DNA of 64,000 bases from Eledone cirrhosa (lineage: Eukaryota): contig OZ024751.1 of assembly GCA_964016885.1 (NCBI GenBank), forward strand, positions 35,588,001 to 35,652,000. Reading direction: 5' to 3'. Under the pieces are notes generated by a model, which saw only the letters and a program-made list of their open reading frames with translations, ran no database searches and had not been told where the DNA came from. Positions 1,329 through 44,775 of the stretch are shown here, one piece after another. Position numbers and translations under genes: made by a program. Position 1 is the stretch's first letter. Each line of letters begins with the position of its first letter.

Positions 1329-1580
1329 TAATTAGAAATTAAACAACACAATATATAACTACTCCATTACCAAAGGTTTCAGGACTCCAGACAATATTAA
1401 CATACGTCTAGTTCGTTCCTCTGATGAGTGAACTAGGCGTATGTTAATATTGTCTGGGGTCCTGAAACCTTTGGTAATGGAGTAGTTATATATTGTCTTG
1501 TTTAATTTCTAATTAGATAGCTCTGTTCTATACATAGAGCACTCTTTTTTCCTTTGCTTTTTCTTCGGAAATACTTAACA
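1329..1580 (+). mobile_element. Short hammerhead-bearing element (P1) with ~85-bp inverted 5' arm; Penelope-like pLTR remnant
   Basis: 1329-1414 is the reverse complement of about 1431-1515. Flanked by (TA)n and (CA)n. The 3' part is homologous to 31355-31531 (-). Confidence 0.65.
1415..1483 (+). ncRNA. Type I hammerhead ribozyme candidate (family P1)
   Basis: CTGATGA 1421-1427; stem II CTAGGC/GTCTGG; GAAA 1464-1467; stem III ACC-ttt-GGT; predicted GUA cut after 1476; imperfect stem I GTTCCT/ATGGAGT. Confidence 0.65.
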
Positions 1581-3277
1581 CACACACACACACACACACA
1601 CACACACACACACACACACACACACACACATATACATCTATATATATAGTCATGTCAGTGTGTGTGTCTAGCTGTTATCCTGTCCCACTCAGTCTAGACT
1701 TCACTCACCATTAGATGTAAAGGCCAACCAAATGTTAAAACATTAAAATTATCTCTTGCTTTTCTGGAGCACAACAACAACAACAACAACAACAACAACA
1801 ACAACAACAACAACACTCAAAAGAAAGACATTCAAATCTGTTCCATTTTGGAACATAATAAAATCAGATTATTTGATTCTGTATTGACATTACCATCATC
1901 ATCATCGTTGTTGTCATTGTCAGCGTAGTCATTATTGATGTTGTCATCACCGCTGTCTCTATCTTGGCATTGTTATCGTCATCATAATCATTGTCACCAT
2001 TACCATCGCCACCACCACCACCACCACCACCATCGCCACCACCATCGCCACCACCACCACTACCACCAGCACCATCACAACCACCACCACCTTGGTAAGA
2101 TTTAAATTCAGAATGTAAAGAGCATGATCAATCACTGCCAAGTATTTCTGATGCTCTACCGATTCTGCCCAAACACTACCATTTTCATCATAATAAAGAT
2201 CTTTAATTTAGGCACAAGGCCAGCAATTTAGAGAGAGGAGGAAAGCTGATTAAATTAACCCCCAATACATTGCTGGTACTTTATTTTATCAACCCACTGA
2301 ACGATGAAACGTGAAGCTGCCCCTTTCATCATCATCATTATCATCATTTAAGGTCTACTTTCCCTGCTAACAAGGGTTGAACAGGTCTCCATAGACCAAG
2401 TAAGTACTGCAGTGAGGCTATTGCCCTCCCAGGCAGACCAAGGGGTCTGTATCCTGCTTACATATGGTCATATTGAGAGCAGAGGAGACGTTATCATGTC
2501 CTTAACACAACTGAAGGGTCCTCATAACCCTTTATTTAGTAAGCTTTCTATGGCTGGATACCCTTCTTAAAACCAACCACTTTACAGTGTGTACTGGGTA
2601 CTTTTATCATGTAGATCACCAGCACTAGGGAGGTTGTCATGTCCTTAACACAACTGAAGGGTCCTCATAACCCTTAATTTAGTAAGCTTTCTATGGCTGG
2701 ATACCCTTCTTAAAACCAACCACTTTACAGTGTGTACTGTGTGCTTTTATTGTGTAATAAGATTAATAATTATCATTACTATCATCATCATCATCATCAG
2801 TGTAGTTAAGATCATCATCATCATCATCATCATCATTATTATTGGAATCATTGATGTCATTTCCACCTTATTCAAGGTAAAGAAATGAAATAAATGTAAC
2901 ATCTTTGACAGGTGTGGTTGTAAAGAATGTAGCACACTCCTTGTTGAATTGTAAAACATTTATGAACTGGCTGTGACTATTTCATGTTCACTCAATCAAA
3001 AATAGGTGTATATTCATATAATAGATGTGTTTATATATATATATATATGTATATGTGTGTGTGTGTATATATATGTATATGTGTGTGACCCATGCTAGCG
3101 TGGAAGATGGACGTTAAACGATGATGATGATGATATATATATTTATTAAAATAACAGATTAACTCTGGGTTCTTATATATTTGATATATATTTATCCTTA
3201 TCGAACTCTCTTTGGATTTTAGTCTTCACATTTATTATTATTACTATATATATATATATATATATATATATATATAA

Positions 3278-3476
3278 CGAAGGAAATGTGGTAAGGAACC
3301 AGGTGGACCATAACGCACCAAAGTACTCAATACTTGAGGTAGTAGAGTGGGTAATAGGAACCAGTAAGACCCCGACAGCTGAGCTCAAGCCGTTTCGACG
3401 GCTAATTCTGGACTAATTCCAGAATTAGCCGTCGAAACGGCTTGAGCTCAGCTGTCGGGGTCTTACTGGTTCCTAT
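3278..3476 (-). mobile_element. Family P2 element with perfect fold-back; other copies at 10400-10590, 10635-10760, 16020-16078, 29927-30100 and 43517-43682
   Basis: Recurring GAAACGGC...GC(C/T)GTC-GGGGT hammerhead 3' half plus shared body, all in (TA)n tracts. Confidence 0.7.
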
Positions 3477-4349
3477 ATATATATATATATATATATATAT
3501 ATATATATATATAAGAGAGATATAATCCCAACCTTAGTGGCAAGCCGAAACTGGTTGGCGCCGTGGTTTAGATTTTACATATCTCTATATCTATTCTGCA
3601 TCTCCCCATGCATTGAGTAAGTACTCCCATAATTAATGGTATCTTTGTCTCAGCACTGCAAACTCTCTCTAATATATATATATATATATATATATATTAA
3701 CAAATGGAAACTATATTTATTTTATTATACATATTTCAAGTGCTTTATATCAGTTATAAAAAATGTTTAAGCTTGTTGAATCCCAACAAATTAAATATAA
3801 CCTCTGCATATATATATTTATATATATATATATATATATATATATATATATATATATTTATATATATATATTTATATATATATATATATAACATCATCAT
3901 CATAATCTTGATCATTTTATGCTCCACAGTCACATTGGTTGGAGGTGTTGTCATGGCCTGAGACCAGATGAGTTGTAGCAACTAGTCTAACTTATTGAAT
4001 TCCATGCTTTCTATGGCTGGATACCCTTCTTAACACCAACCTAACAGAGTGTACTGGGTGTATTCTTTAGTGACACCATCACTACCACTTTACAGAGTGT
4101 ACTGGGTGTATTCCTCATCATATCTCTACATGTCTTTTCCATGACATCTAACAGGATACATTTTATCACAGTACCAACAATAACACTATACAGAGTGTAT
4201 TGGGTGTATTTTATCATGACACCTGCGCTACTACTTTACAGAGTGTACTGGGTGTATTTTATTGTGTTGTCAGCACTAACTGTATTTTGTTTTTTTAAAT
4301 TTCATACATAATATATTTAGGATTACATTTACTATGGTCTGGTTTAAAA

Positions 4350-41999: not shown

Positions 42000-42250
42000 C
42001 CACAACTCCCTGTCCAAAACCATTTTCCAGAACACAGTTGAAGGAGGGGGTGAAGAAGAAGAGGCAGACAAAGAAAATCCTGATCCAACAACATCAAAGG
42101 AAAGACTGGACAAGTCTCAGTACTGTGACCCTTCTCTATATGATGGAGAACAGAACTGTGGTGATTGCTGACTGTCAGAAACGTCTATAGTGACAAACCC
42201 CAACAGCTAGAAGCACCATTTGTAGGAGGACGAGATTGATGTTGATGATA
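42000..42250 (+). mobile_element. RTE-clade LINE 3' fragment
   Basis: HNSLSKTIFQNTVEGG / RRRGRQRKS with frameshift matches RTE KTILQGTVEGxRRRGRQRKxW. Confidence 0.7.
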
Positions 42251-44555
42251 ATATATATATGTGTGGCTTTTGTCTCCTGCTCTTTTAAAGGGTATAAAAC
42301 ACCCAGTAACATGTTAATGTAGACAAAAATATGAGAATGTTGAACTTTTTAAGTATAAACTACTTTTTTTTTTTACATCATTTCCAATAACCTGATCCAT
42401 AGATTGTTCTAAAATATGTACTTCTGAATGGTTTTATATACAGGGTGTCCCCTAAAAATGTATACACACTTCAACAGCATTCAAATAAATGTGCATACAT
42501 TGCTTTGGGACACCATATATATATGTGTGTATATATATATATATATATATATATGTGTGTGTATATATATATATATATATGTGTGTGTATATATACATAT
42601 ATATATATATATATATGTATATATATATATATATTTGTGTGTATATATGTATATATATATATATATATATATATATATATATATTGTGTGTATATATGTA
42701 TATATATATATATATACATATATATTGTGAGAGAAAATAAATATTTCAAGTTTCCTCTTTCAATACAAACTGCTGCTTAATTACATTTTTTTTAGTTTGT
42801 CTTTTCATTCTCTCTACTCCCACCTCTCTCTTTCTCTTCCTCTCTACTTCCATCTCTCTATTCCCATCTATCTCCCTCTCTACTCCCATCTCTCTCCTGT
42901 CTCTCTCCCTCTCTCTCTATTTCCCTCTCTCTCTATTCCCATCTCTCTCCCTCCCCATCTCTCTCCCTCACTCTATTCCCACCTGTCTCTCTCTCTCCAT
43001 CAATCATGTATGTCAGTAATGTAATGTAGGTGTATATATAATTATATACATACATATATGATGTATACATAATGGCTGCGTGCATGAGTGTATATGAATT
43101 CATCTATAAACTGCTTGTAAATAAATGCATTTTGTGTATATATACCTATAAATTTATACACACATATATAATATACATCTTTAAGCATGTATGTATATAT
43201 GAGTGTGTCTTCTGCATGTATGTGGAAACAATAATTTTCATAATTGACGACTACACATGCTATATATACACACACACACATGTATGTAAATATATATACA
43301 TGTATGTATATAAGTATGAATGTATGTATGTGTGTGTATGTATATGATGATGAATATATATTTATATATGTATTTAGATACGTATATATCTATCTATATA
43401 TATATATAATAATATATATATATATATATATAATAATATATATATATATATATATAATAATATATATATATATATATATAATAATATATATATATATATA
43501 TATATATATATATATATAGGAAAAAGTTTAACCCCGATGGCAGAGCTCAAGCCGTCGAAACGGCTATTTCTGAGCTCTGCCGTCGAGGTTAAACTTTTCC
43601 CTATTACCCACTCTACTACCCTAAGTATTGAGTACTCTGGTGCGTTATGGTCCATCTAGTTCCTTTCCGCACTTCCTGTGTTATATATATATATATATAT
43701 AGACACAGCAACTGTACATATTGTTACCACCACTACTACTACTGAAGACGTTTTGCTTTTGTTTTTGCCTTTACACATCCTTTTTTCGACGTAACTCTTT
43801 CAAAGAATCTCAACCTTTCCAAAAGATTCTGGTTAGAATGATTTGCTTATTATTTCATCTGGGCTATCTTTCGGTCATATATATATATATATTCATTTTT
43901 TATCTATATATATATATATTCATTTTATTATAGAAATGACTTCTACAGGACTAGAACTGTTTCAGTCGTAAGAAATCGAATGAAACAGTTCTAAACCTGT
44001 AGAAGTCATTTCTATAAAATGAGTGTGTGTGTTTGTTTTATATATGTATATGTGTGTACATATATATATATATGTATATATATATACACAGAGAAACTAG
44101 AAAGATTGTACAGGTAACTTGAAAGTCCCCTTGATTTCTTCTACCAGTTTTGTGTGTTAAGTGGATGAAGGATCTGTTTAGGGAGATTCTAAAGCAGTTT
44201 TTGTCAGGTTATTAAGGACCTGTTTTATTTACCGGTGACAGATGGTGGGATTTGAACTCAAATGTACAGAAATGAAACAGATATACCACAAAGAATTTTC
44301 TCCAACTCACTTTGTTGGAGGAGATGCCTTATGAAATATATGTGTGTGTGTGTATATATGTGTGTATATATATATATATATAGCATCGTTATCATTGTTT
44401 AACGTCCATTTTCCACACTTGCATGGTTTAGATGGGTTTCCAAGTTATGAGACAAGTCAGATCTGGAGACCATATTTTGGCCTGGCTTTTATGGCTGGAT
44501 GCCCTTCCTAATGCCAACCACGTATGTACATATATATATATATGTATATATAATT

Positions 44556-44775
44556 AGTTCCATGACAAATTAGCCAACCATACTCAAGGACATGTGTTTC
44601 ACCTAGTGGATTTTCAACCCGAGAGAGATTGTGCTCAGGGTTGAAAATCCGCTAGGTGAAGCATGCGTCCTCGAGTATGGTTTGCTAATTTGTGGAACTA
44701 ACTCGCTACCGAACTCGTTCTCTGGACTGAGAGCTCTACTTACTACGGATATAACCTCCCGGTTTTTTTACCACT
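44556..44775 (+). mobile_element. Family P7 fold-back element in (TA)n
   Basis: ~65-bp inverted arms (44556-44620 / 44638-44700). GAA(A/G)CATGCGTC resembles a hammerhead 3' half, but no CUGANGA was seen. Confidence 0.45.

What the first reader, a model, noticed from the sequence alone, without database searches (positions are those of the whole stretch)
1329..44700. Fold-back inversions break almost exclusively at the ribozyme
Seen: in at least 9 insertions from 6 families an inverted arm is attached, and its junction lies in or next to the hammerhead. Examples: stem I/II at about 1414; stem II at about 3415, 10456, 30062 and 43975; the core at about 23716; GAAA at 24944; the stem II 3' strand at 25438; stem I at about 25885. 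Known: PLE insertions often carry inverted truncated pLTR copies. Inference: RT stalling or template switching at the folded ribozyme, or priming from cleavage products, fixes the inversion point. The result is a genomic hairpin that yields dsRNA if transcribed.
Basis: partly seen in the sequence, partly recalled or inferred. Interest (0 to 1): 0.75.

Follow-up and report, generated by a model that had tools for sequence, protein, structure and literature searches.

The report
Penelope inversions stop at transcription starts
These mirror-image hairpins are real, ordinary insertions of Penelope-type jumping genes, and their joints pile up not at the ribozyme as such but at a promoter-like site that is likely the start of the element's RNA, which suggests both halves were copied separately to the end of the template and then joined.

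Summary
All nine named fold-backs are real head-to-head ends of Penelope-like elements (PLEs) in (TA)n. 'Almost exclusively at the ribozyme' holds only for some families. In 1.84 Mb of this genome, 113 of 172 pairs have an arm ending in or beside the hammerhead: 93 of 99 in six families (most of the window's pairs), but 20 of 73 in eleven others, no more than a uniform spread gives. Only 5 of 344 arms start at the cleavage site. In A, B and I the pile-up coincides with the best or joint-best TATA(-30)+initiator match of the reference: at stem I in A, inside loop II in B, about 38 nt upstream of the ribozyme in I; E shows no such site. 136 of 172 pairs have one short-ended and one 'tailed' arm, and 38 pairs share almost no sequence, so they are not fold-back copies. 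Best reading: two cDNAs, primed on both nicked strands at the two known PLE start sites, run off the capped RNA 5' end and are joined. The start site is predicted, not measured. The scan noted similar things in other genomes.

The parts
1325..1578 (.). Family C head-to-head pair: short arm 1325 to about 1418 (-), tailed arm about 1419-1578 (+) with hammerhead core at 1421
   Evidence: six of eight tail-selected family C copies start within about 30 nt upstream of the core, four of them within about 13 nt
3139..3245 (.). Family D pair, junction just downstream of the cleavage site (+6/+14)
3277..3476 (.). Family B pair: tailed arm 3277-3414 (-) ending at the predicted +1 (3414), short arm 3418-3476 (+)
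3692..3804 (.). Family G pair whose arms share no sequence (-14..+48 and +75..+137 from the cleavage site)
10404..10583 (.). Family B2 pair, junction at 10456-10459 in loop II / stem II 3' strand
10635..10762 (-). Family B tailed copy without partner, starting at the predicted +1 (10758) or a few bases before it
23604..23773 (.). Family A pair, junction about 23718-23721 at stem I 5' strand / core
24895..25100 (.). Family D pair: short arm 24895-24945 (-), tailed arm 24941-25100 (+) starting 2 nt after the predicted +1
25116..25609 (.). Family E pair: tailed arm 25116-25441 (-) with a whole hammerhead and ending 111 nt upstream of the cleavage site; short arm 25438-25609 (+) starting in stem II
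   Evidence: family E is the 3' end of an RT + GIY-YIG element
25752..25961 (.). Family A pair, both arms with a hammerhead core, junction 25880-25890 at stem I 5' strand (predicted +1 region)
26223..26427 (.). Family D pair with an inserted piece of tail at the junction; short arm starts at the predicted +1 (26353), preceded by G
28849..28943 (.). Family D pair made of tail sequence only; junction outside the ribozyme
29927..30099 (.). Family B pair: tailed arm ends at the predicted +1 (30064); short arm has lost stem III between two direct repeats
30163..30323 (.).
43516..43677 (.).
43924..44016 (.). Family A pair, junction at 43977 in core / stem II
44554..44775 (.). Family F pair; 3' half of a hammerhead on both arms, core not located
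44807..44951 (.). Family A tailed arm 44832-44951 (+) with a very short inverted arm upstream
45608..45798 (.).

Best explanation
The hairpins are ordinary insertions of endonuclease-bearing Penelope-like elements, likely made of two separately primed cDNAs joined at their growing ends, and the junctions pile up at a family-specific site that is predicted to be the pLTR transcription start, which lies in or at the hammerhead only in some families. Shown: one arm ends at a fixed short 3' end and the other at a fixed tailed end; arm 5' ends pile up at, and rarely pass, a site with initiator and TATA-like matches; the cleavage site is not used. Inferred: the endonuclease nicks both strands of (TA)n; each nick primes RT at one of the two internal start sites (short or tailed); because these sites also lie near the front of the transcript, RT often runs off the capped 5' end after 60-260 nt; the two cDNA ends are then joined bluntly or by a few bases of microhomology, often after trimming. 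Rarer long arms would come from starts in the downstream pLTR copy.
For: One short plus one tailed end in 136 of 172 pairs; arms sharing 8 nt or less in 38 of 172. Junction coordinates distinct in 33 of 36 A pairs and 54 of 60 B pairs, so made anew. Arm ends within 6 nt of the predicted +1: A 24 of 40 (2 further upstream), B1 38 of 52 (0 upstream), I 5 of 8, H 4 of 12, D 11 of 56, G 6 of 52; B repeated in tail-selected loci, 27 of 44 within -7..+6; H in 4 of 7 tail-selected loci, with junction centres at about -125, some 60 nt upstream of the ribozyme. With generic patterns (YYANWYY + TATAWAW at -28..-32) the pile-up holds the top-ranked site in A (1 of 96) and B (1 of 91) and a joint top site in I (2 tied of 141); combined P 3e-4 over A, B, D, E, H, I. 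G before arms starting exactly at +1: 18 of 44, against 83 of 359 at other starts, P 0.011. In RAD reads of three other samples, 455-558 reads per listed row stop matching a family B reference at the predicted +1 or 4 nt before it. In vitro a PLE protein nicks and extends both strands, starts RT at two sites that match the tail, and uses uncleaved RNA (PMC11167929).
Against: No RNA 5' end was measured. Family E (30 arms) has no pile-up and no TATA/initiator match (rank 24 of 301); D and H rank only 7th and 12th, H has no TATA box. Without A and B the motif test gives P 0.04, and I thought of the motifs after seeing A and B. Three of five G references and the C, I and J references used for mapping hold no sequence upstream of the site, so passing arms could not be seen there; 22 of 106 unpaired copies and several of the 12 wide-gap pairs do run further upstream. 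Most D and G arms end well downstream of the site. The G excess is modest, includes non-blind loci and perhaps chance 11-mer matches, and a partner arm can supply the G. The two arms of a pair share subfamily variants (0.02-0.09 differences against 0.12-0.32 between loci), which also fits snap-back. The read-depth step is confounded by subfamily divergence.
Confidence: 0.68

Rival explanations
1. The folded (or protein-bound) hammerhead stalls RT or triggers a template switch, fixing the inversion point.
For: 164 of 198 arm ends in families A, B, C, D, J, M lie in or within 10 nt of the hammerhead against 65 expected; secondary clusters at short palindromes inside the ribozyme (stem II in D and G) suggest its self-complementary bits help joining.
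Against: No excess in eleven other families with the same motif (27 of 146 against 36); the pile-up is at the far 5' edge in A and D and in loop II in B, after RT has crossed the helices; H and I pile up 35-63 nt upstream of it.
Confidence: 0.12
2. One cDNA snaps back and copies itself (self-priming), and the endonuclease or repair later trims one arm to the short end.
For: Arms of a pair share subfamily variants; 73 of 176 junctions overlap by one or more bases; self-priming was proposed for rotifer PLEs (PMC3846280, passages).
Against: 38 of 172 pairs have arms that share 8 nt or less; the short arm reaches further upstream than the tailed arm in 74 of 139 pairs and less far in 32; the short end is a measured RT start in another PLE (PMC11167929).
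Confidence: 0.1
3. Junctions reflect later history: long perfect palindromes lose their centres, or a few truncated or palindromic source copies are re-amplified, so short arms near the ribozyme are what survives.
For: Internal deletions between direct repeats are common (30062, 43550); a few junction types recur (4 of 36 in A, 5 of 60 in B).
Against: Ends are base-precise at an initiator A; unpaired copies start at the same site (B 11 of 20, A 6 of 16); long near-perfect palindromes persist in E, G, H and B.
Confidence: 0.07
4. The hairpins are assembly or library artefacts.
For: Few strand-changing reads were listed (3 reads at the B start-site joint in one run), and no read was laid across the window's own junctions.
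Against: Arms end at two different fixed family positions, are 93-97% rather than 100% alike in the three best window pairs, and abut (TA)n in 125 of 152 short ends.
Confidence: 0.02

Closest known systems
Canonical EN+ PLE insertion unit (Penelope/Poseidon, Neptune, Nematis): pLTR, adjacent inverted 5'-truncated copy, tail on one end (PMC8557442 and PMC3846280, passages)
   Same: [quoted passage not shown]
   Different: Tails here are about 35-150 nt rather than 30-40 bp; most insertions are 100-400 nt stubs; junctions pile up at a promoter-like site, which the passages I read do not report.
Poseidon of Anolis (PAc) in vitro (PMC11167929, first two of four parts read)
   Same: Two RT start sites that define the tail, both target strands nicked and extended, AT-rich target, ribozyme cleavage not needed.
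   Different: The parts read do not address how inverted arms are joined or where they end.
LINE-1 twin priming and extra 5' G on full-length insertions (recalled, no call)
   Same: Two primers from the two target strands, inversion joined by microhomology; cap copied as an extra G.
   Different: In L1 the two cDNAs copy different parts of one RNA, giving an inversion without duplication; here both usually copy the same pLTR region from two fixed starts, giving a palindrome.
Minimal type I hammerheads of metazoan PLEs (PMC4209133, first two of four parts read)
   Same: Short palindromic stem/loop III, variable stem II, U3-A8 core variant (families B, I, P); motifs on opposite strands 100-700 bp apart were noted there.
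   Different: Family D has A at core position 4; in B the predicted start lies inside loop II, so the front copy of the ribozyme would be incomplete.
Drosophila virilis Penelope promoter (PMC2377424, passages)
   Same: Start site in the pLTR with an initiator and an intron beginning 46 bp downstream; family G has a conserved splice-donor-like motif 39-45 nt after its predicted +1.
   Different: That promoter is TATA-less; A, B, G, I here have TATA-like boxes at -29 to -31.

Membership tests
EN+ Penelope-like elements | Single ORF with RT and C-terminal GIY-YIG endonuclease | tested here: met
   Family E only: GIY-YIG PF01541 E 7.8e-5, above cut-off; RVT_1 E 2.2e-4, below cut-off, YVDD motif visible; all copies seen are 5'-truncated or broken
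EN+ Penelope-like elements | ORF linked to families A, B, C, D | tested here: inconclusive
   Upstream sequence of 260-330 nt exists for A, B and D in several to many copies; no ORF was found in the 12 family A loci scanned; not followed further
EN+ Penelope-like elements | Hammerhead motif in the pLTR | tested here: met
   Core, GAAA, cleavage triplet and stem I placed by hand in 25 of 31 references; stem I pairing recovered by folding in 7 of 8 tried, the full three-way fold in A, B, C; Rfam listed no hammerhead family among the 150 best of 258 matches shown
EN+ Penelope-like elements | Inverted 5'-truncated copy and tail on one end | tested here: met
   136 of 172 pairs; also on ORF-bearing E copies L233 and L235
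Neptune/Nematis-type PLE | CxxC-type linker before GIY-YIG and (TA)n targeting | tested here: met
   Linker cysteines visible in the family E protein; 125 of 152 short ends abut (TA)n
Neptune/Nematis-type PLE | Placement in the RT tree | not tested
   No tree built
Active hammerhead ribozyme | Self-cleavage | not testable with these tools
   Needs an in vitro assay; 5 of 344 arms start at the predicted cut
RNA polymerase II core promoter | TATA box near -30 and initiator at +1 | tested here: inconclusive
   Met in A, B, I, G2, G5; weak in D, H; absent in E
RNA polymerase II core promoter | Capped RNA 5' ends at +1 | not testable with these tools
   No RNA holder listed
MITE / fold-back DNA transposon | One fixed unit with equal terminal inverted repeats | tested here: not met
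   Arms are unequal, centres differ between copies, unpaired arms are common

The most novel reading that the evidence does not exclude
Every inverted PLE insertion is a double-primed product: a dimeric RT-endonuclease primes both target strands, one at the short and one at the tailed start, and the junction records the capped 5' end of the template. PLE junctions would then be a fossil map of element promoters, some of which start inside their own ribozyme and so disarm its front copy; this route has left some 300,000 hairpin stubs in this genome.
Probability: 0.5. Interest if true: 0.72.

Novelty: new member of a known kind. Interest (0 to 1): 0.5.

Why it matters
How PLEs, the closest retroelement relatives of telomerase, make their inverted arms is described as unsettled in the papers read (PMC8557442, PMC3846280, PMC11167929). 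The pattern here separates the candidate causes with genome data alone: it argues against ribozyme cleavage, a general ribozyme block and self-priming, and names exact bases where 5'-RACE should find RNA starts. It also implies that most copies are stubs that lost their TATA box at birth, and that roughly one such hairpin per 10 kb (about 320,000, a rough extrapolation) could give dsRNA when transcribed, which is untested.

Tried and rejected
Rfam search of the window: the 150 rows shown of 258 are microsatellite-driven or weak matches, none a hammerhead. Genome searches with a family B upstream query and two family E queries returned no candidates, which shows nothing. Automatic upstream extension of references timed out once and then followed the inverted arm in A, B and I, so references were chosen by hand from long copies. 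No RNA holder listed. A read-depth test on family E could not be run, so the test in a family whose ribozyme is far from the 3' end rests on the assembly only. Looking for an ORF upstream of A and B gave coordinates but no sequence. Rejected: cleavage-product priming (5 of 344 arms); snap-back through natural stem II in B (no arm in a close pair reaches its 5' strand); a common arm-length cap (B short arms are about 60 nt or less, G and H often 120-190 nt, E 23-480 nt); inherited junctions; splice-acceptor origin of the B pile-up (arms include the AG). Rows dropped before counts: 19 of 195 blind pairs in families without a located hammerhead, and 4 of 176 in which neither arm reached a fixed end or the match was AT-rich noise, among them the window pair at 43975. 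One of the 178 sampled stretches (L021) was placed over a known family A hit and eight flank the window. Paper searches that found no report of junctions at the transcription start or of twin priming in PLEs; subscription papers and all supplements were not seen.
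Full report
Observation. The window lies in a 3.0-Gb animal genome. Self-comparison and reading of the sequence confirm near-perfect inverted pairs at all nine named places. Mapping on family references gives 17 head-to-head pairs in the window from families I call A, B, C, D, E, F and G, plus one A copy with a very short inverted arm.

What the elements are. With the hammerhead strand taken as sense, both arms point outward and are joined at their 5' ends. 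Each family has two fixed 3' ends, a short one and one with a further tail (counted from the cleavage site: A +28/+86, B +20/+97, D +28/+116, E +160/+213, G about +55/+140, H +48/+131, I +80/+138). 136 of 172 pairs have one end of each kind and 125 of 152 short ends abut (TA)n. Upstream of family E lies a GIY-YIG domain with a CxxC linker and an RT; two long copies carry an inverted short arm at their 5' end. This is the known PLE unit of pLTR, inverted truncated copy and one-sided tail (PMC8557442 and PMC3846280, passages). For A-D no ORF was located, so their PLE status rests on architecture.

I took 178 stretches of 10 kb at round coordinates across 22 large contigs plus the window, 1.844 Mb (eight flank the window, one was placed on a known hit). 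There were 195 head-to-head pairs; 176 in families with a located hammerhead, 172 after dropping four. An arm ends in or within 10 nt of the ribozyme in 113 of 172 pairs, both arms in 78. The excess is confined to A, B, C, D, J, M (93 of 99 pairs; 164 of 198 arm ends against 65 expected if ends were uniform from 150 nt upstream of the ribozyme to 20 nt from the arm's 3' end). In the other eleven families it is 20 of 73 pairs and 27 of 146 arm ends against 36 expected. This grouping was made after seeing the map. Twelve more pairs with wide gaps were missed by the pairing rule, several with both arms far upstream. In A-D the ribozyme ends only about 15-35 nt from the short 3' end, so most short insertions end near it whatever the cause. 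Only 5 of 344 arms start within 2 nt of the cleavage site, in line with the in vitro result that uncleaved RNA is the main template (PMC11167929).

Where junctions really pile up. The pile-up is sharp but family-specific: 44-39 nt upstream of the cut in A (5' strand of stem I), 40 nt in B (inside loop II), 45 nt in D, about 125 nt in H and 68-71 nt in I, the last two some 60 and 35 nt upstream of the ribozyme. E is spread from -466 to +175. At these sites A reads TATAAAT at -31 and TCA(+1)GCT; B has a TATTTAA-type box at about -30 and TCA/TTA(+1)GTC; I has TATAAAA at -30 and CCA(+1)GAT, its upstream flank seen at two loci. Scoring every A of each reference with generic patterns (recalled consensus, YYANWYY and TATAWAW) ranks the pile-up first of 96 in A, first of 91 in B and joint first of 141 in I, but 7th in D, 12th in H and 24th in E; combined P 3e-4, and 0.04 without A and B. 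For G the joint top-ranked site of two subfamily references and its homologues are the upstream limit of all 52 paired arms, though only 6 end within 6 nt of it and three of five references cannot show passage; a splice-donor-like motif follows 39-45 nt later, as in D. virilis Penelope, whose intron starts 46 bp after the start site (PMC2377424, passages). Arms that begin exactly at +1 are preceded by G in 18 of 44 cases against 83 of 359 for other starts (P 0.011), as expected if the cap is copied; this is modest and a partner arm can also supply the G. Unpaired copies start at the same site (B 11 of 20, A 6 of 16, D 6 of 18), so it is a stop for RT, not a feature of inversion as such.

Independent data. 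In raw RAD reads of three samples with the same species label as the best holder (one study), several hundred reads per run stop matching a long family B copy at the predicted +1 or 4 nt before it, and depth falls about fifty-fold across the site in run X21. Subfamily divergence adds stops 7-10 nt downstream and inflates the fall, and few strand-changing reads were listed, so this is supporting, not decisive. No RNA start was measured.

Mechanism. Shown: two fixed 3' ends, one per arm; 38 of 172 pairs whose arms share 8 nt or less and so cannot be copies of each other; either arm may reach further upstream (74 short, 32 tailed, 33 equal); junctions nearly all different (33 of 36 in A, 54 of 60 in B) with small overlaps or inserts; both arms of one subfamily. 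Known from PAc: both strands are nicked and extended, RT starts at two sites that define the tail, and a dimer is predicted. Inferred: each nick primes one cDNA, on one RNA or on sister RNAs from one locus; starts in the front pLTR copy run off the capped 5' end; the two ends are trimmed and joined. The ribozyme's small palindromes may help joining but do not set the position. In B a transcript starting in loop II would lack half of its front ribozyme; in A it would start with a complete one.

Novelty. The insertion unit is known and these are new families of it. My paper searches found no report that junctions mark the transcription start or that both arms are separate cDNAs; the rotifer paper proposes self-priming and the Naiad paper endonuclease resolution for the tail (passages only; supplements and subscription papers unseen). 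I stated this reading before opening the scan's notes, which hold similar unchecked readings from other genomes; they are not counted as support. Verdict: observation partly confirmed, ribozyme-based interpretation mostly replaced, interest 0.5.

Noticed in passing
window 8674-9021 and 10004-10343: Inverted pair of 348-nt arms, 93% alike, about 1 kb apart, of a repeat ending in (GAT)n; it encloses a tailed hammerhead copy of family Q at 9204-9429.
   Followed up: no
window 37611-41006 (+): Uninterrupted 1131-aa reading frame with many TPR repeats, a likely host gene.
   Followed up: partly
L149:9696-9790; families B, I, P: Hammerheads with the U3-A8 core variant; family D has A at core position 4 in the copies seen.
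   Followed up: partly
G000 hits: Eight head-to-head pairs of long family B copies 0.85-2.1 kb apart, six of them 1.5-1.6 kb, hinting at a second fixed upstream limit and a unit of about 1.1 kb.
   Followed up: no
L093:1-3554 and L069:1-1725: Hammerhead families T and P also occur as tandem arrays (period about 480 nt), like non-LTR retrozymes.
   Followed up: no
L095 and L061, about 80-145 nt upstream of the family E cleavage site: TATA-less stretch with motifs resembling ETS, NRF1 and YY1 sites (labels recalled, no call); five E arms end at -93 to -111 in the blind sample, perhaps a diffuse start.
   Followed up: no
window 26310-26357, L049:5732-5752, L095:8202-8241: Junctions often carry short inserted pieces copied from the element's own tail or arm.
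   Followed up: no
L042:1580-2140, L146:1720-2212, L021:8961-9770: Stubs of different families are stacked end to end in one (TA)n tract.
   Followed up: no
families S, U, V, X, Y (19 blind pairs with F): Head-to-head pairs, in S with the same short/tailed ends, in which no hammerhead was found; possibly Naiad-type PLEs.
   Followed up: partly
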